A stretch of 64,000 nucleotides of DNA. Source: Staphylococcus sp. CAG:324. Lineage in GTDB: Bacteria > Bacillota_I > Bacilli_A > ML615J-28 > CAG-313. Position 1 is the stretch's first letter. Each line of letters begins with the position of its first letter. Under the pieces are notes generated by a model that was given only the letters and a program-made list of their open reading frames with translations, was not told the origin of the DNA and searched no databases. Both the position numbers and the translations under genes were made by a program. Where the stretch lies: the NCBI GenBank assembly GCA_000433035.1, contig FR890814.1, forward strand, positions 5,443 through 69,442, written 5' to 3'. Positions 13,167-36,499 of this stretch are shown here, piece by piece.

Positions 13167-13251
13167 ATAAAATTTAACACATTTTGTCGAAAACGTTTTC
13201 TGATAATTTTTCTTTACTTTTTTTTTTTAATATATTATAATATTAGAGTAA

Positions 13252-13320
13252 AAGTCATATATTTCTGATAATATGGTTCAGAAGTCTCTACATTATCACC
13301 GTAAATGATAATACTATGGT
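13252..13320 (+). ncRNA. Purine riboswitch of the guanine class (C at the discriminator position).
   Basis: UCAUAUA...UCUGA-UAAUAUGGU-UCAGA...AGUCUCUACA...UUAUCA-CCGUAAA-UGAUAA...UAC-UAUGG matches the P1/P2/P3 layout of the xpt G-box. An upstream TATAAT lies at 13236-13241. Confidence 0.6.
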
Positions 13321-13394
13321 AACAATTGAATAATTGCTTAAAAACCGCTGTTATGGCTTTTTACAACAAAAAATTTTTAAGGAGGACTTCTTTA

Positions 13395-25070: not shown

Positions 25071-27008
25071 TTATGTATTTGCATTTACAACTTTTATATT
25101 TTTATATAACTTATACTTTGTATTCACTCTCATTGCATTTAAAATTGCAAGAATAGATACACCTACATCACCAAATACAGCAAACCACATATTTGTAATG
25201 CCTAAAGCAGATAAGACTAAAATCAGCACTTTTATAATGATGGAAAAGATAATATTTTGAAAAACAATAATCATTGTTTTTTTAGCAATCGTTTTTGCTA
25301 CCGAAATACCACGCAAATCATCTTTCATCAAAACAATATCTGAAGCCTCAATAGCTGCATCACTACCTACTGCTCCCATCGCAATACCAATATCTGATCT
25401 CATCAAAACAGGTGCATCATTAATACCATCACCAACAAAGCATAATACTTCCTTATCTTTTTTACTATTCAATAATTCTTCTACTTCTTCTACTTTATTT
25501 TGAGGAAGAAGGGATGCTTTGTAACCTGTTAAACCTACCTCTGTGGCAACTTTTTGAGCAATTTCATCATTATCACCTGTAAGCATAATGGTTTTACAAT
25601 TCATTTTATTTAATTCACTAATGACATCCTTTGTTTCTTCTTTTATTTCATCTTCTATCAAAATTGAACCAATAAATTCATCGTTTTTAGCAACATAAAT
25701 AATTGTTCCTAAAGCTTTTTCTTTTGTAAAATCAATGCCCTTTTCTATCATTAACTTTTCATTACCACAAAAAATAACTTGATTCCCTTTTTTTGCCATA
25801 ATTCCTTGACCTGCAATATTTGTCAAAATGTAGTCATTTTCCAAATCTTGATGATAAGCATTCATAATTGATTTTGCAATTGGGTGATTAGAATTTTGTT
25901 CTGCAATTGCTGCTAAAGATAAAATTTCTTCTTTTCTTTCTATTGGAGTTATTTTTGTAACTACAAAATTTCCTTTAGTTAAAGTACCTGTTTTATCAAA
26001 AACAAAAATATTTGCTTGATTTAATTTTTCTAGATAATTAGAACCCTTTATTAAAATGCCATATCGGGAAGAAGCGCCGATACCCGCAAAAAATGAAAGA
26101 GGAATGGAAATTACTAAAGCACAAGGACAAGAAACAACTAAAAAGCTTAATGCACGATACACCCAAACCGACCATTCTTTAGTAATAACACTAGGAAGAA
26201 TCGCAAGGGCTAAAGCAATACATACCACTATGGGTGTATAATATTTTGCGAATTTAGTAATAAAATTCTCAGCTTTAGATTTTTGACTACTAGCATTTTC
26301 AACAAGATCTAATATTTTAGAAACGGTTGAATCATAAAATTCTTTACGAACCTCCACTTCAATCTGTGATGTTAAATTCACACATCCGCTAATTACATCA
26401 TCATTGACATGAACATCTCTTGGCAATGATTCACCTGTTAATGCTTTCGTATCTAAAGTAGAAGATCCCTTCAAAATAACACCATCTAAAGGAATTTTTT
26501 CACCTGGATTGATTACAATAATATCTTTAACCTTTACACAAGTAGGATCAACTTTCTCTATAATTTGATCTTTTTTTAAATTAGCATAATCTGGGCGAAT
26601 ATCCATTAGAGCAGAAATAGACTTTCTTGATTTTCTAGTTGCATAATTTTGGAAAAATTCACCTACTTGATAAAATAACAAAACTGCACAAGCCTCATCA
26701 AAACCCTCAATCGCTTTTCCAGTACTTCCTAGATAAATGGCTAGCGAAAAAGCACCAAGCGTTGCAATACACATTAAAAAATTTTCATCAAAAATTTGAC
26801 CATGTAAAATATTACGAAATGCTCTTAGTAAGACATCATAGCCTATTATTATATACACTACTAAATACAAAACAAATGGCAAAAGCCAACCAAATTGACC
26901 TGAAACAAGCGTTCCTAAATTTATAGTTTTATCAATGATTAAAATAATACTAAACATTGATAAAGCAATAAGGATACGAATGAAGTTTTTCTTTTCCTTT
27001 TTACTCAT
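25071..27008 (-). CDS. cadA: Heavy-metal (Cd2+/Zn2+-type, P1B) translocating P-type ATPase without an N-terminal HMA domain.
   Basis: CPC motif (VVSCPCALVISIPL), DKTGTLT and GDGINDAP. Confidence 0.85.
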   Translation of the reverse strand: MSKKEKKNFIRILIALSMFSIILIIDKTINLGTLVSGQFGWLLPFVLYLVVYIIIGYDVLLRAFRNILHGQIFDENFLMCIATLGAFSLAIYLGSTGKAIEGFDEACAVLLFYQVGEFFQNYATRKSRKSISALMDIRPDYANLKKDQIIEKVDPTCVKVKDIIVINPGEKIPLDGVILKGSSTLDTKALTGESLPRDVHVNDDVISGCVNLTSQIEVEVRKEFYDSTVSKILDLVENASSQKSKAENFITKFAKYYTPIVVCIALALAILPSVITKEWSVWVYRALSFLVVSCPCALVISIPLSFFAGIGASSRYGILIKGSNYLEKLNQANIFVFDKTGTLTKGNFVVTKITPIERKEEILSLAAIAEQNSNHPIAKSIMNAYHQDLENDYILTNIAGQGIMAKKGNQVIFCGNEKLMIEKGIDFTKEKALGTIIYVAKNDEFIGSILIEDEIKEETKDVISELNKMNCKTIMLTGDNDEIAQKVATEVGLTGYKASLLPQNKVEEVEELLNSKKDKEVLCFVGDGINDAPVLMRSDIGIAMGAVGSDAAIEASDIVLMKDDLRGISVAKTIAKKTMIIVFQNIIFSIIIKVLILVLSALGITNMWFAVFGDVGVSILAILNAMRVNTKYKLYKNIKVVNANT

Positions 27009-27033
27009 AAGTTATACTTCCCAATTATATGTT

Positions 27034-27252
27034 TTATAAAATGATTGTACAATCAGGCTCAACTCTTTTACAAGTTTTAATAACTTCCCTCATAATTTCA
27101 TCTGCCTTAGTCTCATCTAATTCAATTGTCATCTTTTGTGTTATGAAACTAATATGAATTGAAGAAACTCCTTCAATTTTCGCAACAGCTCTTTCCATTT
27201 TGGCCGCACAATTAGCACAATCCAAATCTTCTAATTTATACACTTTTTTCAT
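27034..27252 (-). CDS. Stand-alone heavy-metal-associated (HMA) domain protein with a DCANCA metal-binding motif.
   Basis: The LEDLDCANCAAKMERAV ferredoxin-like HMA fold has CANC replacing GMxCxxC. The start was moved to MKKVYKL, which follows GAGAGGA. Confidence 0.7.
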   Translation of the reverse strand: MKKVYKLEDLDCANCAAKMERAVAKIEGVSSIHISFITQKMTIELDETKADEIMREVIKTCKRVEPDCTIIL

Positions 27253-27263
27253 TTCAATTCCTC

Positions 27264-27629
27264 TCATTCTGTGACGTGTTCAATCGCCATTTTATAAATT
27301 TTTAACACATGATCATCATCAAGTGAATAAAAAACTTCTTTACCAACTTTTCTAGATTTAATTAATCTCGCTAGTCTTAAAACCTTTAATTGATGAGATA
27401 TAGCTGATTTCGTCATCTCTAATAGTTTAGCAATATCACAAACACAAAGTTCATCTTCAACTAAAACGGATAATATCTTTGTTCTTGTTTCATCCCCTAA
27501 AACTTTAAAAAGTTCTGTAACGAAAAATAGATTTTCCTCACTAGGCATTAAATTTTTAGCGTGTTCAATTTTATCATCATGCGTATAATTATTTTTACAA
27601 TCTAATAATTGTTCACTCATCATATGCAC
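27264..27629 (-). CDS. cadC: ArsR/SmtB family metal-sensing repressor (CadC-like).
   Basis: ELCVCD alpha3 metal site, N-terminal Cys, and the SHQLKVLRLARLI recognition helix. Confidence 0.8.
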   Translation of the reverse strand: MHMMSEQLLDCKNNYTHDDKIEHAKNLMPSEENLFFVTELFKVLGDETRTKILSVLVEDELCVCDIAKLLEMTKSAISHQLKVLRLARLIKSRKVGKEVFYSLDDDHVLKIYKMAIEHVTE

Positions 27630-27642
27630 TTCCTTTTCTGTT

Positions 27643-27668
27643 AACAGTTGAATAGTTATTCAACCGTT
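27643..27668. promoter_or_regulatory. 12-2-12 inverted repeat AACAGTTGAATA-gt-TATTCAACCGTT immediately upstream of cadC. This is a candidate CadC/ArsR operator.
   Basis: Read directly from the sequence. The architecture matches SmtB/CadC-family operators. Confidence 0.4.
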
Positions 27669-27734
27669 AGTATTATAATATATTATATGCAAAATGTCAA
27701 TTAAAATGATACAAATAATATGAATAAAAAATAA

Positions 27735-29204: not shown

Positions 29205-30062
29205 ATGCTAGACATTGGTGAAATTGGAAAATTTATTGTAAAAAGAGAAACGGATATTAGTTACACTTTGAGTCCTGATGATATTGATTTAACAAATTAT
29301 GTTTTTTTGCATTTCAATCAGGCAACAAGAAAACTAAACATTGGTGAGAAAATTGAAGCCTTTTTATATTATGATCAAAAGAAAAGGCTATGTGCAACAA
29401 TGGAGAAACCACTAATTACAACTAAGCAATCAGGGTTTGTTGAAGTGGTAAATATTTGTGATGGAGGAGTTTTTGTCAATATTGGAATTGCTAAAGATAT
29501 TTTACTTTCAAATGATTATTTACCTAATAATAAACTAGCATGGCCACAACTTTCTGAAAAATTACCTTGTATTCTTAAAGCAAAAAAAGACCAATTGGTT
29601 GCAAAAATTATAAACAAAGAGGATTTAAAAAATTTAAAAATAGAACCTCTTTCTATTGGGACTAAAGTAGTCGCAACTGTTTGTAGACTTTTAAGTGATG
29701 GCATTGGTCTTTATACAAATGATTTTCAGTATATATATGTACATAAAAGTATGATGCGAAAAAAATATCATTTAGGAGAAATCGTTGAAGTGACTATTAT
29801 TAATATCAATAAAGAGGGAAATGCCAATGGCAGTTTTATTCAACAAAAAGAATTCGCTAGATTGGATGATTCTAAGCTCATTTTAAATTATTTAAAAACG
29901 ATGGGAGGAATTGTTCATCTTGGCAATGCTTCTTCTCCAGAAGAAATTAAAAAATTTTTTCCAATGAGCAAAAGTGCCTTTAAAAGAGCAGTTGGAGCTC
30001 TTTATAAAGATAAAATAATAGTAGTTGATGATGATTCAATAAAATTAATAAATAATAAATAA
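29205..30062 (+). CDS. cvfB: CvfB/YitL family S1-like RNA-binding protein.
   Basis: Tandem S1-like repeats plus a C-terminal winged-helix region. The size (285 aa) fits. Confidence 0.6.
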   Translation: MLDIGEIGKFIVKRETDISYTLSPDDIDLTNYVFLHFNQATRKLNIGEKIEAFLYYDQKKRLCATMEKPLITTKQSGFVEVVNICDGGVFVNIGIAKDILLSNDYLPNNKLAWPQLSEKLPCILKAKKDQLVAKIINKEDLKNLKIEPLSIGTKVVATVCRLLSDGIGLYTNDFQYIYVHKSMMRKKYHLGEIVEVTIININKEGNANGSFIQQKEFARLDDSKLILNYLKTMGGIVHLGNASSPEEIKKFFPMSKSAFKRAVGALYKDKIIVVDDDSIKLINNK

Positions 30063-30131
30063 AATTATAAAAGCAGATAGATGATTTACAAATTCAATCT
30101 ATCCGTTTTTATTTATTTTATACACTCTATT

Positions 30132-30584
30132 TTAGCATCCACAATCATCTTTTCCCGTAACAACTTCAAAATCGTTTTGATTTTCCTTTTCTAATCTTTG
30201 ATATCCTCCAAGATAAATGATAACCTTTTTATATTTTGCTTTTTTTAAAGCTTGTTGTAATTGTTGCACCCAACTGCCATCCTCATCTATAATAAAAATT
30301 GTTTTATCTTTTGAGTACATACTCTCTATTCTATAGATAAATTCATCCATATTGCCTTTTTCTATATCATAATTTATAAATCCACGAAAATGGCCTTTCG
30401 CAAAAGCATTATCTAAATCTCTTACATCAACCAAACAATAATTCTTTTTATTAGAATCAATATATTTATATATCTCATCTATAAAAGAGCGCTCTTCTCC
30501 TATTTGATAGACAGTTGTTTTTTGACAACTAGAAATCACTAAAAGCATCATTACAATTACAAAAATTAGATTAATTTTTTTCAT
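30132..30584 (-). CDS. Rhodanese-like domain lipoprotein, probably inactive (the catalytic Cys is replaced).
   Basis: Lipobox-like signal (LLVISSCQ). The rhodanese N-terminal motif is CLVDVRDLDNAFAKGHFRGFIN. Confidence 0.45.
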   Translation of the reverse strand: MKKINLIFVIVMMLLVISSCQKTTVYQIGEERSFIDEIYKYIDSNKKNYCLVDVRDLDNAFAKGHFRGFINYDIEKGNMDEFIYRIESMYSKDKTIFIIDEDGSWVQQLQQALKKAKYKKVIIYLGGYQRLEKENQNDFEVVTGKDDCGC

Positions 30585-31302
30585 TTTTAATCTCCTCTAA
30601 CATTTTTATATCTTGTTGGGACAAAGTATATTTTTCAAGTAGATCTGGTCTTTGTTTATAAGTTTTTTTCAATGCTTGATATCTTTTCCACTTTTCAATA
30701 TTAGCATGGTGACCGGATAAAAGAATTTCCGGTACTTTTTTATTATCATAAATTGCAGGCCTTGTATATTGAGGATATTCTAATAATCCCATAGTAAATG
30801 ATTCACCACTTGTAGACTCATCACTAATTACACCAGGAATTAAACGTGAAATAGCATCAACAAGTGCACATGCAGGAATTTCACCACCAGTTAAGACATA
30901 ATCACCAATTGATATTTCTTCATCAACATATTCTAAAATTCTTGCGTCAATTCCTTCATAATGACCACAAATAATAATAAAGTGATTATATTTACGAAGA
31001 GTTTCCACTTTTTTTTGATTCAGTAACACTCCACTAGGTGAGGTTAAAATTTTATACGCATTTTCAAAATCAGCGATATCTTTCATTGCTAAATGAATGG
31101 GTTCAACACTGATAAGCATTCCTGCTCCTCCACCATAAGCATAGTCGTCTACAGTTAAATGTTTATGAGTTGAATAATTACGAAAATTTATAATATTGAT
31201 CTCAATTATTTGTTTTTCAATTGCTCTTTTAAGAATTGAACTAGAAACAATTCCTTCAATCATTTCAGGAAAAAGAGTTAAAATATCAAATTTTACTGAC
31301 AT
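30571..31302 (-). CDS. trmD: tRNA (guanine37-N1)-methyltransferase.
   Basis: FDILTLFPEM...GGGAGM...ICGHYEGIDARI. Confidence 0.9.
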   Translation of the reverse strand: MSVKFDILTLFPEMIEGIVSSSILKRAIEKQIIEINIINFRNYSTHKHLTVDDYAYGGGAGMLISVEPIHLAMKDIADFENAYKILTSPSGVLLNQKKVETLRKYNHFIIICGHYEGIDARILEYVDEEISIGDYVLTGGEIPACALVDAISRLIPGVISDESTSGESFTMGLLEYPQYTRPAIYDNKKVPEILLSGHHANIEKWKRYQALKKTYKQRPDLLEKYTLSQQDIKMLEEIKNEKN

Positions 31303-31799
31303 AAATCGATTACCTTCACAATAATTTTATCTTCTAAAATGTGTATAATATATTCATCTACAAAAGGAATTAACATTTTATCTGCTTTCGTTTTTATTTC
31401 TAAAATATATCCTTGTGGCACTTCAATCAAATCCCAAACTTCACCTAAATTATTGTCATTTTCATCAACCACTTTTAATCCAATCAAATCATCTAAATAA
31501 TACTCATCCGAATTTAATGTTGGAAAATCCTCATATTTAGCATAAATATCACAACCAATATAATGAGAAACTAAATTAATATCGTTTAAGTTATCAATTT
31601 GAATTAAAATCGTTTTTTTATGAATTCTCATTGAAGTAACGACTGCCTCTTTTGCTATTTTTTTACTTTTCAGATAAATATGGGCTCCTATTCTAAAACG
31701 ATAATCTATAAAATCACTTTCAGAATAAATTTTTAATTCCCCTTTTATTCCAAAAACACCAATGATTTTTCCAATATTGATTAATTTATCGCTTTGCAT
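31293..31799 (-). CDS. rimM: 16S rRNA processing protein RimM.
   Basis: Size, the IGKIIGVFGIKGELKI motif, and its position upstream of trmD. Confidence 0.8.
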   Translation of the reverse strand: MQSDKLINIGKIIGVFGIKGELKIYSESDFIDYRFRIGAHIYLKSKKIAKEAVVTSMRIHKKTILIQIDNLNDINLVSHYIGCDIYAKYEDFPTLNSDEYYLDDLIGLKVVDENDNNLGEVWDLIEVPQGYILEIKTKADKMLIPFVDEYIIHILEDKIIVKVIDLCQ

Positions 31800-34215
31800 T
31801 TGTTTGTTCCTCTTTCAAATCTTTTTTATTGTGATATAATCTCATAATTAATAGTGAATTTAAAATTGCTAAAAGAGAAATTCCAACATCAGAAAAAATA
31901 GCAATGCCTAGTGGTAGTTCCATCTTTTCACCATCTTTCGTAACAAAAAATCCTAATAGAATAGCAAGAATCATCACAATAAATTTAACTGTTAAACTTA
32001 AAATGATATTTTGAATTACTTTTCTTCTTGTATATTTTGCAATTTTAAATGCCTCATTAATCTTTAACAAATTATCCCCCATTATTACCATATCAGCAAT
32101 CGCAATGGTAGCATCACTTCCTGTATTCCCCATTGCAATTCCAATATCTGCACTAGCAATAACAGGGGCATCATTGATACCATCGCCTATAAAAATAGTT
32201 TTCCCCACTGATTGTTTTTTAATTTCTTCTAAAATTTCTACTTTTTGATGAGGTAATAATTCTGCATGATATCCATCAACGTCAATTTGCTTGGCCACAC
32301 TGCTAGCAATTGCTACTGAATCCCCCGTTAACATAAAACACTTCTTTCCATATTTGTGCAAATATTTAATCGTTGTAAGGGCTTCTTCTTTAATAACATC
32401 CCCAATTTCAACATATCCTTGATAAATTTTATTCTTTACAATATGAACAACTAAATTACAACTTTCAATTTGAGGTAATTCAATTTTATTCGCATTCATT
32501 AATTTATCATTTCCTATTAAAATTTTGTTGCCATTGATAGTAGCCTTCGCTCCTCCTGTAATATCTTGAAAATCTGTAATAATCTCTGGAAAAATCTTAT
32601 CCCGACCAAAATTATCAACAATTGAAATTCCGATTGGGTGATTAGAATAATATTCCGCATGAATCAATATATTCAATAATCTTTCTTCTGTCACTTCTTC
32701 CACCATTGGAACAACCTTGACAACATTAAAAACGCCTTTTGTAATCGTTCCCGTTTTATCAAAAACAACATTTTCTACCTTATTTAAAGTTTCAATATAA
32801 TTGCTACCTTTAACAAGAATTCCCCTTCTACTACAAGTTCCAATTGAAGAAAAGTAACAAAGAGGAATAGATATAACAAGAGCACAAGGGCATGATATTA
32901 CTAAAAATTCCATTGCAGTATAGATCCAATGTCTAAAATTACTAGTATCAAAGATACTACCTAGAACAGATATCATCAATGCTAAAAATACCACAATAGG
33001 CGTATAATATTTCGCAAAACGTGTAATCATCGTTTCAGCTTTCCCTTTACTGCTCGTAGCATTTTCCACCAAATCCATAATTTTAGAAATCATTGAATCA
33101 CCATATGGTTTAGTAACTTGAATTTCAATAATTTTTCCCATATTAACACTACCACTTAAAATTTCACTACCTATATCAACACTTCTTAACATACTTTCAC
33201 CTGTTAAATTTTTAGTATCAATATTCGTTTTACCATTAAACACTTTTCCATCAGTTGGAATAATTTCACCCTTATTTACAATAACAATATCACCAGGCAT
33301 CAAGGTTTCTACATCTACTTCAGTTATTTCAGTATCTAATTTTAATTTTGCCGTTTTCACATCAAAGTCTAATAAATCTTTGATAGAACGTCTAGAATGA
33401 TTGATGGCTTTATTTTGTAGAAATTCACCAATCTGATATAAAGCAACAACCATTACAGCTTCACTTGCGTGGGATGTACAAAAAGCTCCGATACTTGCAA
33501 CACTCATTAAAAAAGTTTCATCTAATAAATGACCTTTAAATAAATTTTTAAAAAATCTTGTTAAAACGGGATATCCAATTAAAAGATAAGGAACAATGTA
33601 GCAATAAAAAGGAATAACAAAAAAAGCACTAATGATACACATAATAACAAAAATTGTTATACCTGTTGAAAAAGTAATGACGGTTTTCTTAGAAAGTTTT
33701 TTTTCATCTTCAAAGCGCTGAAGTTTATTCATCTTACTATCAACAACAATAATTCGATCATCTACATGATGGGCAATTCGATTTACATTTACAAATAAAT
33801 TATCAATAACATTTTTGCTATACGTTTCAATTATAAATCTACCTGTTGAAAAATCAACAATAATTTGTTCATAATCTAACGATTTTTTCGCAATGGTTTC
33901 AATCCTTGCGGCACAATGAGCACAATCCAAATTCTTTAAATATAGAACTTTCCGATATTTTTCTTTATTATCAATTCTAATCATCATTGCCTTTTTTTCA
34001 TATTCATGAATAGCTTTTAAAATTAGTTCTTCAATTTTAAATAATTCTTGCTCAGTTAATTCTAAAGTTGAATCATATTCAATATGTATTACATTTTTAC
34101 TATTTTCAATAGAAACTGATTTAATCGGTTCAATCTTTTTGATTTCATTGCATATTCTTTTAAAATTTTTATTACTGGTAACTTTTAAAAGTTGATAATT
34201 CTTAACTTGAATCAT
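31786..34215 (-). CDS. Heavy-metal P1B-type ATPase with an N-terminal HMA domain (LDCAHCAARIE) and a CPC motif.
   Basis: VISCPCALVISIPL, DKTGTITKG and GDGINDAP. Its 3' end overlaps the rimM start by 14 nt. Confidence 0.85.
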   Translation of the reverse strand: MIQVKNYQLLKVTSNKNFKRICNEIKKIEPIKSVSIENSKNVIHIEYDSTLELTEQELFKIEELILKAIHEYEKKAMMIRIDNKEKYRKVLYLKNLDCAHCAARIETIAKKSLDYEQIIVDFSTGRFIIETYSKNVIDNLFVNVNRIAHHVDDRIIVVDSKMNKLQRFEDEKKLSKKTVITFSTGITIFVIMCIISAFFVIPFYCYIVPYLLIGYPVLTRFFKNLFKGHLLDETFLMSVASIGAFCTSHASEAVMVVALYQIGEFLQNKAINHSRRSIKDLLDFDVKTAKLKLDTEITEVDVETLMPGDIVIVNKGEIIPTDGKVFNGKTNIDTKNLTGESMLRSVDIGSEILSGSVNMGKIIEIQVTKPYGDSMISKIMDLVENATSSKGKAETMITRFAKYYTPIVVFLALMISVLGSIFDTSNFRHWIYTAMEFLVISCPCALVISIPLCYFSSIGTCSRRGILVKGSNYIETLNKVENVVFDKTGTITKGVFNVVKVVPMVEEVTEERLLNILIHAEYYSNHPIGISIVDNFGRDKIFPEIITDFQDITGGAKATINGNKILIGNDKLMNANKIELPQIESCNLVVHIVKNKIYQGYVEIGDVIKEEALTTIKYLHKYGKKCFMLTGDSVAIASSVAKQIDVDGYHAELLPHQKVEILEEIKKQSVGKTIFIGDGINDAPVIASADIGIAMGNTGSDATIAIADMVIMGDNLLKINEAFKIAKYTRRKVIQNIILSLTVKFIVMILAILLGFFVTKDGEKMELPLGIAIFSDVGISLLAILNSLLIMRLYHNKKDLKEEQTNAKR

Positions 34216-34505
34216 TTGATCACCCCACTATTGAGCGTTTGTTCTAAAAAAGATTTAATTTTATCATCCTTTAAGCGATAAAATATTTGTTTACCATATC
34301 TACTAGCCTCCACTATCCTAGCATCTTTTAATAACCTTAAATGATGTGAAGCAAGAGGTTGACTTATGTTTAAATGACTAGCTAATTGATTGACACTACT
34401 TTCTTGTGTTAATAAATATATAACGATTTCTAATCGAACGATATCTCCTAATAAATTAAGAGTTGTAGCTAAATTTTTTATTGAATTTATATTTATAGAT
34501 TCCAT
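34212..34505 (-). CDS. ArsR/SmtB family HTH regulator containing no cysteine.
   Basis: LASHHLRLLKDARIV recognition helix. There is no ELCVCD-type or alpha5 His-rich site. It overlaps the ATPase start (ATGA). Confidence 0.65.
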   Translation of the reverse strand: MESININSIKNLATTLNLLGDIVRLEIVIYLLTQESSVNQLASHLNISQPLASHHLRLLKDARIVEASRYGKQIFYRLKDDKIKSFLEQTLNSGVIK

Positions 34506-34646
34506 ATTTTTTAACCTCTATATATAAATATATGTTTATACGTTTATATATTATACCAATATATTTTTTTATTACAATTATTAGGCTTAAGAAAAAGACA
34601 TTTTATAAGAATCAAATCATTATAAAATGCCTTTTTTATATCTATC

Positions 34647-34910
34647 TTAATCCTCTTTTGCATCAAACTCTATTTCCAGACTTTGCTTTTGGCGAATAGC
34701 TGCCGCATGAGCTATCGTTCTAATTGCGCTTGCAACCCGACCCTTTTTCCCTATAACTCTTCCCAAATCATCTTGATGAACTAAAGCTTTCACTAAAACT
34801 TTTTCTCCTTCTACAAAACTAGTTGTACACACTTCATCAGGATGAGTTACAAGGGGCTTGATTAATTGGGCAACTAAGCTTTCATAATTCAATTCAGCCA
34901 TTCTTATCAC
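34647..34910 (-). CDS. KH-domain RNA-binding protein (YlqC-like).
   Basis: GRVIGKKGRVASAIRTI is a KH GxxG loop. It sits in the conserved position downstream of rpsP. Confidence 0.75.
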   Translation of the reverse strand: MIRMAELNYESLVAQLIKPLVTHPDEVCTTSFVEGEKVLVKALVHQDDLGRVIGKKGRVASAIRTIAHAAAIRQKQSLEIEFDAKED

Positions 34911-35183
34911 CTATTCAGCTTTGGCTTTTTCTTCTAAGAATTTAACAATTAATCCTTCTTTTGTAAGTAGTGATTTAACAGTATCCGTTGGTTTTGCACC
35001 TGCCTTTAACCATTTCATTACTTTTTCAGTATCGAATTTGATAGTAGCAGGATTAGTTAGTGGATTGTATGTTCCTACAACCTCAATATAACGCCCATCA
35101 CGAGGATTGCGAGAATCGGTTGCTACAATACGATAAAAAGGATTCTTTTTTGATCCATATCTTTGAGATCTTAATCTTACCAT
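34911..35183 (-). CDS. rpsP: 30S ribosomal protein S16.
   Basis: [34 protein letters not shown]. The start was moved to the ATG after AGGAGG. Confidence 0.9.
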
Positions 35184-35214
35184 AAATTTGTACCTCCTAT
35201 ATTTAATACAAAAG

Positions 35215-35264
35215 TAGTATAACATATTTTAAAGCAAGTGTCAAGTATTTTAACTTGACACTTG
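35215..35264 (-). promoter_or_regulatory. rpsP promoter TTGACA-18-TATACT. The -35 element lies inside one arm of a 12-bp perfect inverted repeat (CAAGTGTCAAGT / ACTTGACACTTG), which also serves as the terminator of the upstream gene.
   Basis: Read directly from the sequence. Confidence 0.45.
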
Positions 35265-35501
35265 TTAACTATTGAAATATTTAATCATACCATTAATAAA
35301 ATCAATTTGTTTTTTTAAATTTGCAATTTTATCACTTGATGTCATCTTTAAATTGGTTTTCACTTCTTTTTCAAAATCATTTATCGTTAAAGGGTCTTGA
35401 TTCAAATAAATATACCATTTAGGATTATATCTCAAATAATTGGTATAAATTTCACTTGAATAAATTTTATCCAAAACACTTTTTACCATTAATCCCACCA
35501 A
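35265..35501 (-). CDS. Hypothetical protein of 78 aa.
   Basis: Intact ORF. Its start overlaps the upstream gene's end by 13 nt. Confidence 0.35.
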   Translation of the reverse strand: MVGLMVKSVLDKIYSSEIYTNYLRYNPKWYIYLNQDPLTINDFEKEVKTNLKMTSSDKIANLKKQIDFINGMIKYFNS

Positions 35502-35857
35502 CTATTGTAATTATTATTATAAATTCCTGTTGGTTTACCTCCAAAACTTTGCGTAATCTGTAGTACTTTTTGAATCGTATTTAATGTTTTACTGATTGAA
35601 TCTGGATCAATCTTTTTTACATAATTAATTACGTTTTTAATGCTTGTTTGGGATAATAAATCTTCAATCGTATTGGCATTCGTTTTTGTTGTTTTATTTG
35701 CAACTGTTTGGTACTTCTGCCACATTGGATCCCCTTCGCCTAAAATTACCCAATTTTCATATACTTTTTGCCACGTATATGTACCATTTAAAACATCATC
35801 TTTGACGCCCGGATATCTTGCAACAAAATCTCTGAATTCATCCATTCTGCTTGCCAT
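35489..35857 (-). CDS. Hypothetical protein of 122 aa.
   Basis: Intact ORF. Confidence 0.35.
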   Translation of the reverse strand: MASRMDEFRDFVARYPGVKDDVLNGTYTWQKVYENWVILGEGDPMWQKYQTVANKTTKTNANTIEDLLSQTSIKNVINYVKKIDPDSISKTLNTIQKVLQITQSFGGKPTGIYNNNYNSWWD

Positions 35858-35949
35858 TTTAAATTCCTCCCTACTTTAATTTATTAATATGATAAATTTT
35901 TTGTGACAAAAGTTTGAAAAAAACATAGAATACAAGTGAAAGGAGAAAT

Positions 35950-36207
35950 ATGATGTTTCAATTTTTAAAAAAGAGCGGACAAAGAAATAATAACTATACT
36001 CCATCTTATCCTAGTCCCTACCAAAGTCAGCCATATCAACAGCCTAACTATATGCAACCAAATACCAATCAATATGATTTAAATATGATTCATACAGAAA
36101 TCAATGAACTCAAAAGAGAAATTAATGATTTATATCAACGCATAAATCGACTTGAAAGCTTTTTAGGAGTACGAGATAATAATCAACCTAATTCAAATTT
36201 TTCATAA
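35950..36207 (+). CDS. Q/N/P/Y-rich small protein with a C-terminal coiled coil. It could be a spore-coat-like low-complexity protein.
   Basis: YPSPYQSQPYQQPNYMQPNTNQ followed by INELKREINDLYQRINRLESF. Confidence 0.35.
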   Translation: MMFQFLKKSGQRNNNYTPSYPSPYQSQPYQQPNYMQPNTNQYDLNMIHTEINELKREINDLYQRINRLESFLGVRDNNQPNSNFS

Positions 36208-36499
36208 GATGATAAATTGATATTCCCGTTTTATCATAAAAATTTTTATTGTATCGTTTTTCTAATGCTATACTATTCACTGTCATTCGATATTCTATGT
36301 AGGACGTTTTTAGTGTCTCAAAACTAATTTTATGCTTTACATACTTTTCTACATTATTATAAAAATTAATAATTTTAATCATTTCTTCTGTTGTAAACAT
36401 ATCATAGTCGATATTATAACTATCATTATTTTCTTTTACATTATCCACAATGTTATTAGCGTTTACTTTTATATGTTTTCTACTTTTCATATTCTTCAC
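36188..36499 (-). CDS. Hypothetical protein of 103 aa.
   Basis: Intact ORF. It converges on the preceding gene. Confidence 0.3.
   Translation of the reverse strand: MKNMKSRKHIKVNANNIVDNVKENNDSYNIDYDMFTTEEMIKIINFYNNVEKYVKHKISFETLKTSYIEYRMTVNSIALEKRYNKNFYDKTGISIYHLMKNLN

What the first reader, a model, noticed from the sequence alone, without database searches (positions are those of the whole stretch)
31786..34646. Metal-resistance pair (Cys-free ArsR plus P1B ATPase) wedged into the conserved rpsP-KH-rimM-trmD operon with overlapping codons
Between the KH-protein gene and rimM, where Firmicutes normally have nothing (or ylqD), lie a 97-aa ArsR-family regulator and an 809-aa CPC-type ATPase. 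The ATPase end overlaps the rimM start by 14 nt, and the regulator overlaps the ATPase by 4 nt. The insert is therefore translationally embedded in a ribosome-biogenesis operon.

The regulator has no Cys and no alpha5 His cluster, so its sensing mechanism, if any, is unclear.

A second, classical cadC-HMA-cadA unit lies 4 kb away, downstream of rplS (25071-27629). Both HMA domains use the rarer DCA(N/H)CA metal motif.
Basis: seen in the sequence. Interest (0 to 1): 0.5.

Follow-up and report, generated by a model that had tools for sequence, protein, structure and literature searches.

The report
Zinc-pump operon fused to rimM-trmD
A zinc/cadmium export pump and its regulator, which has lost its metal-sensing residues, sit directly in front of and overlap two housekeeping translation genes; this is an old, vertically inherited gene order in a group of uncultured gut bacteria, not a recent insertion, and is of modest interest.

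Summary
On the minus strand the order is rpsP, KH, a 141-nt gap, a 97-aa Cys-free ArsR, an 809-aa ZntA-type P1B-2 ATPase, rimM, trmD and a rhodanese.

Two parts of the interpretation fail.

1. It is not a recent insertion. The ATPase lies directly upstream of rimM in 6 of 7 related species genomes and in 8 of 8 more distant orthologue contexts. ATPase divergence tracks TrmD divergence (Mantel r = 0.76). Outside the clade, 54 of 55 loci have compact rpsP/KH-trmD spacing.

2. It is not embedded on its upstream side. The gap holds a terminator hairpin, an extended -10 promoter and an ArsR-type palindrome. That promoter survives in relatives that lost arsR, or arsR and the ATPase. The likely transcription unit is therefore arsR-ATPase-rimM-trmD-rhodanese.

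Distant orthologues of the regulator keep the full CzrA-type alpha5 zinc site and canonical operators. The window's subclade lost three of the four ligands, yet the gene is under purifying selection (dN/dS 0.18).

Best reading: an ancestral CzrA/ZntA-like efflux operon fused to rimM-trmD, now run by a probably metal-blind autorepressor. Transcription and DNA binding are inferred, not shown.

The parts
35216..35244 (-). Predicted rpsP promoter (TTGACA-17-TATACT with an upstream TG)
   Evidence: 11 of 12 consensus positions. It is a consensus match only.
34911..35183 (-). rpsP (ribosomal protein S16)
   Evidence: TIGR00002 110.5 bits. 100% identical to the L001 protein.
34647..34910 (-). khpA-type KH-domain gene (ylqC-like)
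   Evidence: PF13083, 65 bits.
34592..34636 (-). Intrinsic-terminator-like hairpin after the KH gene, with 17-nt arms and a run of T
   Evidence: -17.9 kcal/mol, z = -4.66, 0 of 200 shuffles fold as well. repeat I8: arms 94% complementary. A hairpin plus T-run lies at the same place in every relative.
34550..34577 (-). Predicted promoter of the arsR-ATPase-rimM-trmD-rhodanese unit (TTGTAA-16-TGgTATAAT, extended -10)
   Evidence: It is conserved in L001, in L003 (where it precedes the ATPase) and in L002 (where it precedes rimM).
34523..34540 (-). [quoted passage not shown]
   Evidence: it matches its own reverse complement with 2 mismatches. It is the only site within 2 mismatches of this 18-mer in the 64-kb window. 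The core ATAAACATATATTTAT is identical in L001 and L019. L004 has ATAAACATCTATTTAT. L012 has TATAAACAATAGTTTATA. It is absent in L002 and L003, which lack the regulator.
34212..34505 (-). arsR: 97-aa ArsR/SmtB-family winged-helix regulator, Cys-free, with a degenerate alpha5 site
   Evidence: dN/dS against L001 is 0.175. Intact copies at 98-99% identity occur in metagenome clusters.
31786..34215 (-). 809-aa P1B-2 (ZntA/CadA-type) metal-exporting ATPase with two N-terminal HMA-fold domains. The first (aa 2-81) has no CxxC. The second (aa 87-159) carries DCAHCA.
   Evidence: TIGR01512, 441 bits. ZntA 4umv E = 9e-88, with the CPC, Lys and Asp transmembrane residues aligned; pLDDT 88 and tandem HMA folds. 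dN/dS 0.055.
31293..31799 (-). rimM. Its ATG lies 14 nt inside the end of the ATPase gene, and its ribosome-binding site (AGAGG) lies within ATPase codons.
   Evidence: Thirteen of the 14 clade relatives that have the ATPase overlap rimM by 1-14 nt; L016 has a 134-nt spacer. L025, outside the core clade, overlaps by 4 nt.
30571..31302 (-). trmD (tRNA m1G37 methyltransferase)
   Evidence: TIGR00088, 300 bits.
30132..30584 (-). Rhodanese-domain gene, last gene of the unit. An N-terminal signal peptide and lipobox were seen by eye.
   Evidence: PF00581, 48 bits. It follows trmD in L001-L007 (tblastn) and in L012-L015, L017 and L019 by annotation; in L015 the 152-aa gene at that position carries no Pfam hit.
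30058..30105 (-). Terminator-like hairpin and T-run after the rhodanese gene, facing the convergent cvfB-like gene
   Evidence: -15.7 kcal/mol, z = -2.85.
25071..27700 (-). Second, classical unit: promoter TTGACA-17-TATAAT (27672-27700), operator GTTGAATAACTATTCAAC (27647-27664), cadC (27264-27629), HMA chaperone (27034-27252/27267) and a 645-aa P1B-2 ATPase (25071-27008)
   Evidence: cadC carries the CadC-type alpha3N Cys residues (ELCVCD plus an N-terminal Cys) and DDH..EH.

Best explanation
This is a lineage-specific, ancestral operon fusion. A CzrA-like (alpha5-type ArsR/SmtB) repressor gene and a ZntA/CadA-type P1B-2 Zn/Cd/Pb export ATPase became the first two genes of the transcript that also carries rimM, trmD and a rhodanese gene. 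This happened in the common ancestor of a clade of uncultured, low-G+C gut Bacilli ('Mollicutes'-labelled genomes assembled from metagenomes).

Shown:
- The gene order, the overlaps, the vertical inheritance and the loss of three of four sensor ligands.
- Purifying selection on the regulator and on the pump.

Inferred:
1. Transcription from the rpsP promoter mostly stops at the hairpin after the KH gene.
2. A sigma-70-type promoter with an extended -10 box (34577-34550) starts the five-gene, fully overlapping unit.
3. ArsR97 binds the TATAAACA-TA-TATTTATA palindrome just downstream of the -10 box and represses its own operon.
4. D80 is the only alpha5 ligand left and there is no Cys. ArsR97 therefore no longer responds to Zn/Co/Cd. 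It acts as a constitutive negative autoregulator that holds the pump, RimM and TrmD at a low, steady level.
5. Metal-inducible resistance falls to the separate cadC-HMA-cadA unit, which has its own distinct operator.
6. The stop/start overlaps translationally couple rimM to the ATPase.
For: Ancestry:
- The ATPase is directly upstream of rimM in 6 of 7 species-representative relatives.
- The same holds in 8 of 8 orthologue contexts at 45-67% identity.
- The rimM-adjacent ATPases are monophyletic and separate from the 645-aa paralogues.
- A Mantel test of ATPase against TrmD identity gives r = 0.758, with 0 of 5000 permutations as high.
- G+C is unremarkable and there are no bounding repeats.
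- Outside the clade, 54 of 55 informative loci are compact.

Transcription unit:
- The terminator hairpin folds at -17.9 kcal/mol, z = -4.66.
- A terminator followed by a promoter sits in the equivalent gap in 13 of the 14 relatives where that gap could be read. In L017 only a short hairpin precedes the promoter.
- The promoter core TTGTAA..TGgTATAATATA persists in L003 (arsR lost) and in L002 (arsR and ATPase lost). In L002 it sits directly before rimM.
- No promoter match of 10 or more of 12 positions lies in the 600 nt before rimM in the seven sequences scanned (the window and six relatives). A ribosome-binding site is conserved inside the ATPase 3' end.
- There is a terminator-like hairpin after the rhodanese gene.

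Regulator:
- The closest solved relative is S. aureus CzrA, E about 1e-12.
- Orthologues in L006, L007, L016, L017 and L019 keep the full DxH-x10-HxxH site. L015 has HxxC. L014 has D,H,H,N. The window, L001, L004 and L012 have lost it.
- L006, L007, L016 and L017 carry canonical operators of the ATATGAA..TTCATAT type. L019 has an intact sensor and the same ATAAACATATATTTAT core as the window.
- The alpha5 signature and the 12-2-12 operator type are as described in PMC8790569.
- dN/dS is 0.175 for ArsR97, against 0.146 for rimM and 0.137 for trmD.

Pump:
- ZntA 4umv matches at E = 9e-88, with the CPC, Lys and Asp residues aligned, and DKTGT and GDGINDAP present.
- dN/dS is 0.055.

Precedents:
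- B. subtilis CzrA derepresses the cadA ATPase gene when Zn is in excess (PMC5189952).
- In the E. coli rpsP-rimM-trmD-rplS operon, ribosome density on rimM and trmD is about ten-fold lower than on rpsP and rplS (PMC4378010). Uncoupling them from rpsP is therefore plausible.
Against: - No transcript data were available. The terminator, promoter and operator are sequence predictions in a 27% G+C genome, where promoter-like and palindromic strings are common: 76 promoter-like sites were found against 60.5 expected.
- Read-through from rpsP-KH, or an unrecognised internal promoter, could supply rimM-trmD. One search lists 9-of-12 matches inside the ATPase gene.
- A repressor that cannot be induced, sitting in front of the essential trmD gene, is awkward unless repression is weak.
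- Metal-blindness is inferred from missing ligands only. A new site built from carboxylates, or a non-metal signal, is not excluded.
- Loss of arsR in L003, L013, L018 and L025 shows the regulator is dispensable in some lineages.
- L016 has a terminator and promoter between the ATPase and rimM, so coupling is not obligatory.
- The 8-of-8 orthologue sample was chosen through the ATPase, so it cannot reveal relatives that lost it.
Confidence: 0.55

Rival explanations
1. Recent insertion of a mobile metal-resistance cassette into the rpsP-KH-rimM-trmD operon.
For: Bacteria outside the clade have KH followed directly by rimM: 54 of 55 loci. One close relative, L002, lacks the pair.
Against: - The arrangement is present in 14 of the 15 clade relatives examined, down to 45% ATPase identity.
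- The ATPases are monophyletic and co-diverge with TrmD.
- The G+C content matches the flanks.
- There are no flanking direct or inverted repeats and no mobility genes.
- L002 keeps the terminator and the arsR-type promoter in front of rimM. That pattern is what a secondary deletion would leave.
Confidence: 0.03
2. ArsR97 is still an inducible sensor. It would use a new, non-Cys/non-His site or a non-metal signal, so the operon, including rimM-trmD, remains signal-responsive.
For: - It is under purifying selection.
- D80, D81 and E88 remain in alpha5.
- Several ArsR-family members sense non-metal signals. NCBIfam gives sub-threshold similarity to BigR, 63.5 bits against a cut-off of 155.
Against: - No candidate ligand set is conserved among the degenerate-site orthologues: window, L001, L004, L012, P0008 and P0011.
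- No specialised NCBIfam model reaches its cut-off.
- The gene has been lost outright in close relatives L003 and L013.
Confidence: 0.2
3. The overlap is genome compaction with no regulatory meaning. rimM-trmD would be expressed mainly by read-through from rpsP-KH or from an internal promoter, and the arsR promoter would matter only for the pump.
For: - AT-rich hairpins can be leaky terminators.
- Weak promoter-like matches exist within the ATPase gene, for example 32070-32042.
- L016 shows the two modules can be separated.
Against: - The overlap is kept in 13 of 14 clade relatives that have the ATPase.
- When arsR and the ATPase were deleted in L002, the promoter was retained directly in front of rimM.
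- No promoter match of 10 or more of 12 positions lies within 600 nt of rimM in the seven sequences scanned.
Confidence: 0.2

Closest known systems
Bacillus subtilis CzrA-cadA and Staphylococcus aureus CzrA-czrB (alpha5-type ArsR/SmtB zinc sensors that derepress an efflux gene)
   Same: - A winged-helix ArsR/SmtB regulator whose closest solved relative is CzrA.
- It lies next to a Zn/Cd efflux pump.
- An operator palindrome sits just downstream of the -10 box.
- Distant orthologues (L006, L007, L016, L017, L019) have the full DxH-x10-HxxH site.
- L006, L007, L016 and L017 also carry canonical TGAA..TTCA operators; the L019 operator is the AT-rich variant.
- B. subtilis CzrA controls a P1B ATPase gene, cadA (PMC5189952).
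   Different: - In the window three of the four alpha5 ligands are gone (K82, S93, I96).
- The operator core has drifted to TAAACA/TATTTA.
- The operon continues without a break into rimM, trmD and a rhodanese gene.
pI258-type cadC-cadA, with the CadC alpha3N thiolate sensor
   Same: An ArsR-family repressor gene immediately upstream of a CPC-type P1B-2 ATPase gene. The window's second unit (25071-27700) is of this kind.
   Different: ArsR97 has no Cys at all, so it cannot form an alpha3N site.
The trmD operon of E. coli (rpsP-rimM-trmD-rplS) and of Bacillus (rpsP-ylqC-ylqD-rimM-trmD-rplS; the Bacillus order is from memory)
   Same: rpsP, KH, rimM and trmD are in the same order and on the same strand.
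   Different: - A terminator, a promoter, arsR and a 2.4-kb ATPase gene separate KH from rimM.
- rplS is 2.4 kb further on, behind a rhodanese gene, a convergent cvfB-like gene and a methyltransferase gene.
- E. coli lowers RimM and TrmD output at the level of translation (PMC4378010). Here a separate, possibly repressed, promoter is predicted.
ArsR-family members that do not sense metals (HlyU, BigR, SdpR, PagR, NolR)
   Same: A small winged-helix protein that lacks the classical metal sites. These proteins appear among the PDB and NCBIfam hits.
   Different: No model for any of these reaches its cut-off. ArsR97 is an orthologue of alpha5-type sensors by synteny, not a member of those subfamilies.

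Membership tests
ArsR/SmtB family of transcription regulators | Winged helix-turn-helix of the HTH_5 type that passes the curated cut-offs | tested here: met
   PF01022 49.6 bits (cut-off 22). NF033788 77.9 bits (cut-off 55).
alpha5 (SmtB/CzrA-type) metal sensors | The DxH-x10-H-x2-(H/E) ligand set in helix alpha5 | tested here: not met
   CzrA D84/H86/H97/H100 align with D80/K82/S93/I96. The signature is as described in PMC8790569. It is met in the syntenic orthologues of L006, L007, L016, L017 and L019.
alpha3N (CadC-type) metal sensors | A CxC or CxxC(D) motif in helix alpha3 plus an N-terminal Cys | tested here: not met
   ArsR97 has no Cys. The paralogue cadC121 has ELCVCD and an N-terminal Cys.
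ArsR/SmtB family of transcription regulators | An imperfect inverted-repeat (12-2-12-type) operator overlapping or next to the promoter of the regulated operon | tested here: inconclusive
   [quoted passage not shown] It is the only site within 2 mismatches of this 18-mer in the window. It is shared with L001, L004, L012 and L019 and absent where arsR is absent. Binding was not tested.
P1B-2 (ZntA/CadA) heavy-metal ATPases | The P-type core (DKTGT, TGES, GDGxNDxP) with a score above the subfamily cut-off | tested here: met
   TIGR01512 441 bits (cut-off 313.5) and TIGR01525 506 bits. The motifs are visible in the translation.
P1B-2 (ZntA/CadA) heavy-metal ATPases | A transmembrane CPC motif plus the conserved Lys and Asp of the last two helices (ZntA K693 and D714; numbering from memory) | tested here: met
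   Alignment to Shigella ZntA 4umv, E = 9e-88. 'iscpcalvis' aligns with 'igcpcalvis', 'ltvkfi' with 'lglkgi', and 'fsdvgis' with 'ladtgat'.
P1B-2 (ZntA/CadA) heavy-metal ATPases | An N-terminal HMA domain with the D-C-x-x-C motif | tested here: met
   PF00403 25.5 bits (cut-off 24.8) on the isolated N-terminus. DCAHCA aligns with ZntA DCAACA. AF2 predicts two beta-alpha-beta-beta-alpha-beta domains at pLDDT 88. They match B. subtilis CopA tandem HMA domains and the ZntA N-terminal domain 1mwy.
P1B-2 (ZntA/CadA) heavy-metal ATPases | Zn/Cd/Pb export activity | not testable with these tools
   Needs transport or MIC assays.
trmD operon (rpsP-rimM-trmD-rplS as one transcript) | Co-transcription of rimM-trmD with rpsP, and contiguity with rplS | tested here: inconclusive
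   The order is kept, but a predicted terminator and promoter intervene. rplS is separated from trmD by three other genes, one of them on the opposite strand. Transcripts are not testable here.

The most novel reading that the evidence does not exclude
Across a clade of reduced-genome gut Bacilli, the essential tRNA methyltransferase TrmD and the ribosome-maturation factor RimM would be transcribed from a promoter guarded by a CzrA-type zinc sensor. Their expression would then be tied to zinc status in members with an intact sensor (L006, L007, L017, L019). In the window's subclade the sensor was disabled, and a metal switch became a metal-blind autoregulatory promoter for housekeeping genes.
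Probability: 0.3. Interest if true: 0.45.

Novelty: new variant of a known kind. Interest (0 to 1): 0.3.

Why it matters
The parts are textbook: an ArsR/SmtB repressor, a ZntA-type pump and the trmD operon genes. What appears undescribed is the stable linkage.

- A metal-efflux module heads the transcript of two core translation genes, with overlapping reading frames, throughout a clade.
- Two full-text searches combining rimM with terms for these ATPases found nothing relevant.
- The clade offers a natural series of regulator decay. The states are an intact alpha5 sensor, a degenerate sensor under purifying selection, regulator loss, and loss of the whole module with the promoter kept.

This series could be used to study how a signal-responsive promoter is converted to housekeeping use. 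It also shows how RimM and TrmD levels can be uncoupled from ribosomal-protein genes by a route other than the translational one used by E. coli.

For annotation, the ATPase should not be read as a horizontally acquired resistance island.

Tried and rejected
- Rfam scan of the window. It found only a purine riboswitch at 13235-13336 and nothing in the KH-arsR gap. No tRNA genes that might mark an integration site were found.
- Repeat search around the unit. It found only AT-rich chance matches plus the terminator hairpin. There are no target-site duplications or terminal inverted repeats.
- Homologue search with ArsR97. The word index returned only 12 hits, too few for a family-wide survey of sensor sites. 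Synteny-derived orthologues were used instead.
- Metagenome scan with a TrmD alignment. The two patterns it used were so conserved that it returned mostly distant bacteria. This was useful as an outgroup sample but added only L025 and L046 to the clade.
- dN/dS for the HMA chaperone (1.46). This is an artefact of an in-frame stop at codon 5 of the L001 ORF and is discarded.
- Canonical 12-2-12 register. Read in the register of L006 and L007, the window sequence has only 7 of 12 complementary arm positions, counted by eye. The palindrome is shifted by one half-site.
- Clade assignment. Whether the clade is the 'RF39' order could not be tested. The record titles say only 'uncultured Mollicutes' or 'Bacilli bacterium'.


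Full report
**Observation**

The minus strand of 30132-35225 carries these genes in order:
- rpsP (34911-35183)
- a KhpA-type KH gene (34647-34910)
- a 141-nt gap
- a 97-aa ArsR-family gene (34212-34505)
- an 809-aa P-type ATPase gene (31786-34215)
- rimM (31293-31799)
- trmD (30571-31302)
- a rhodanese-domain gene (30132-30584)

All identities pass the curated Pfam and NCBIfam cut-offs.

The chain of overlaps also continues, with 10 nt between rimM and trmD and 14 nt between trmD and the rhodanese gene.

The second unit, cadC-HMA-645-aa ATPase at 25071-27629 downstream of rplS, is real too.

**What the parts are**

*The ATPase.*
- It is a ZntA/CadA-type P1B-2 pump: TIGR01512 441 bits, and its best solved relative is Shigella ZntA 4umv at E = 9e-88.
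- The transmembrane CPC, Lys and Asp residues align with ZntA, and the phosphorylation and nucleotide-binding motifs are intact.
- The N-terminal 160 residues are predicted with pLDDT 88 to form two ferredoxin-like HMA folds. These match the tandem HMA domains of B. subtilis CopA and the ZntA N-terminal domain.
- The first fold has no CxxC. The second carries DCAHCA, which aligns with ZntA DCAACA. This is the usual zinc-type motif, not a rare one.

*The regulator.*
- Its closest solved relative is S. aureus CzrA, at E about 1e-12.
- It has no Cys.
- At the four CzrA alpha5 ligand positions (D84, H86, H97, H100; numbering from memory, consistent with the chain numbering) it has D80, K82, S93 and I96.

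**Is it an insertion?**

A scan of species-representative genomes with TrmD found seven close relatives. All are uncultured gut 'Mollicutes' or 'Bacilli' genomes assembled from metagenomes of human, rabbit, goat and sheep gut.

- Six of the seven have an orthologous ATPase immediately upstream of rimM. TrmD identity falls as low as 66%.
- Only L002 lacks it.
- Context look-ups for eight more distant ATPase orthologues, at 45-67% identity, found ATPase-rimM-trmD in all eight. Six have an arsR gene in front, and most have the rhodanese gene behind.
- The ATPase stop overlaps the rimM start by 1-14 nt in 13 of these 14 relatives.
- The rimM-adjacent ATPases form one clade, apart from the 645-aa paralogues.
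- Their pairwise identities track those of TrmD: Mantel r = 0.758, with 0 of 5000 permutations as high.
- G+C content is the same as in the flanks, and no repeats bound the unit.

In a broad outgroup sample from metagenomes, 54 of 55 informative loci have rpsP/KH within 1.5 kb of trmD. The exception, L025, is another rpsP-KH-ATPase-rimM locus.

The arrangement is thus specific to a clade but ancestral within it.

**The upstream boundary**

The 141-nt gap is not empty. It holds three features, in this order:
1. A 17-bp-stem hairpin followed by a T-run. It folds at -17.9 kcal/mol with z = -4.66 (repeat I8).
2. TTGTAA-16-TGgTATAAT, an extended -10 promoter.
3. [quoted passage not shown] It is the only site within 2 mismatches of this 18-mer in the window.

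The same terminator-then-promoter layout is visible in 13 of the 14 relatives where this gap could be read. L017 shows only a short hairpin before its promoter, and L005 is cut at the contig end.

Two natural deletions are informative.
- L003 has lost arsR. It keeps the terminator and promoter in front of the ATPase.
- L002 has lost both arsR and the ATPase. It keeps the terminator and the same promoter core directly in front of rimM.

No promoter match of 10 or more of 12 positions lies in the 600 nt before rimM in the seven sequences scanned (the window and six relatives). A ribosome-binding site for rimM is embedded in the ATPase 3' end. A terminator-like hairpin follows the rhodanese gene.

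I infer that the transcription unit is arsR-ATPase-rimM-trmD-rhodanese, separate from rpsP-KH. The module heads the rimM-trmD transcript rather than being embedded in the rpsP transcript. This rests on sequence prediction only.

**The regulator in evolutionary context**

Syntenic orthologues show four states of the alpha5 site:
- Full DxH-x10-HxxH: L006, L007, L016, L017, L019.
- HxxC variant: L015.
- D,H,H,N: L014.
- Lost: the window, L001, L004 and L012. In the ATPase tree these fall in one subclade, together with L003 and L013.

Operators also vary.
- L006 and L007 carry AATATATGAAGA-AA-TATTCATATGTT.
- L016 carries ATATGAACAAGTATTCAAAT.
- L017 carries two TGAAT-x4-ATTCA repeats.
- These are canonical operators of the 12-2-12 type described for this family (PMC8790569).
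- L019 has an intact sensor but the same AT-rich core, ATAAACATATATTTAT, as the window. The window palindrome is therefore a genuine operator variant, not a relic.

arsR has been lost independently in L003, L013, L018 and L025. Even so, ArsR97 is not decaying.
- Between the window and L001, dN/dS is 0.175 at dS = 0.40. This is comparable to rimM (0.146) and trmD (0.137).
- Intact copies at 98-99% identity recur in metagenomes.

**Mechanism proposed**

The ancestral state was a CzrA-like, Zn/Co-responsive repressor controlling a ZntA-like pump, as in B. subtilis CzrA-cadA (PMC5189952), fused to rimM-trmD.

In the window's lineage the repressor lost its allosteric site but kept DNA binding. It would now act as a metal-blind negative autoregulator of a low-level, constitutive operon.

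The classical cadC unit has its own perfect TTGAATA-AC-TATTCAA operator. It would supply inducible resistance without cross-talk.

Placing rimM-trmD behind a terminator and under a modest promoter would give the low expression relative to rpsP that E. coli achieves by translational means (PMC4378010).

My confidence by step:
- Ancestry and vertical inheritance: about 0.9.
- The transcription-unit model: about 0.65.
- Metal-blind autorepression: about 0.5.

**Rivals**

- A recent mobile insertion is essentially excluded.
- A new sensing mode for ArsR97 is not excluded.
- Nor is expression of rimM-trmD mainly by read-through or from an internal promoter.

**Novelty**

Searches of the paper library for this linkage found nothing relevant. 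The components are standard. The conserved fusion and the sensor-decay series are a new variant of a known kind, of modest interest.

Noticed in passing
window 13235-13336 (+): Purine riboswitch aptamer (RF00167), 76.8 bits against a gathering score of 37. It is the only Rfam hit in the window.
   Followed up: no
window 30132-30584 (-): The rhodanese-domain protein that ends the operon starts with a signal peptide and a lipobox-like ISSC, and ends in DDCGC (seen by eye). A gene in this position follows trmD in most relatives. A likely extracytoplasmic rhodanese lipoprotein co-transcribed with trmD is unexplained.
   Followed up: partly
window 27034-27267 (-); L001 14035-14268: The HMA chaperone ORF was listed as 77 aa and as overlapping cadC by 4 nt. 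It probably starts at M6 (27252), because the L001 orthologue has a stop at codon 5. The cadC/HMA overlap is then not real.
   Followed up: yes
window 33973-34212 (-), ATPase residues 2-81: The first N-terminal domain of the ATPase is a confidently predicted HMA-like ferredoxin fold with no CxxC. An N-terminal domain without a CxxC is present in all orthologues of the clade (N-termini; alignment A4). Its role is unknown.
   Followed up: partly
L016 7446-7585: In the most divergent orthologue locus (45% ATPase identity), the ATPase and rimM are separated by 134 nt that hold a terminator hairpin and a TTGACT..TATAAT promoter. The two modules are insulated there.
   Followed up: partly
L046 2078-6714: A human-gut contig from outside the core clade has a 130-aa ArsR and an 852-aa P1B ATPase, whose first HMA domain has a normal CAHC motif. 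They lie 493 nt upstream of rimM-trmD, with no rpsP-KH upstream. This is either an early-branching state or an independent juxtaposition.
   Followed up: partly
L004 718-1035: This degenerate-alpha5 orthologue has DHDC in the alpha3 region, where CadC has its CxC motif. It may be a different, partial metal site.
   Followed up: no
L012 (GCA_023664905.1, contig JAMPET010000002.1): The source labels this 501-kb contig's ATPase as 'Prevotella sp.'. Its gene content (YlbD, YlbE, UPF0223, S16-KH-ArsR-ATPase-RimM-TrmD) is Bacilli-like. The bin is probably mislabelled.
   Followed up: no
window 35265-36499 and loci L012-L019: A conserved block of YjcZ_2, UPF0223, a small ORF, YlbD_coat and YlbE precedes rpsP in most relatives. 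Names associated with sporulation and spore coat appear here in a reduced-genome gut lineage.
   Followed up: no
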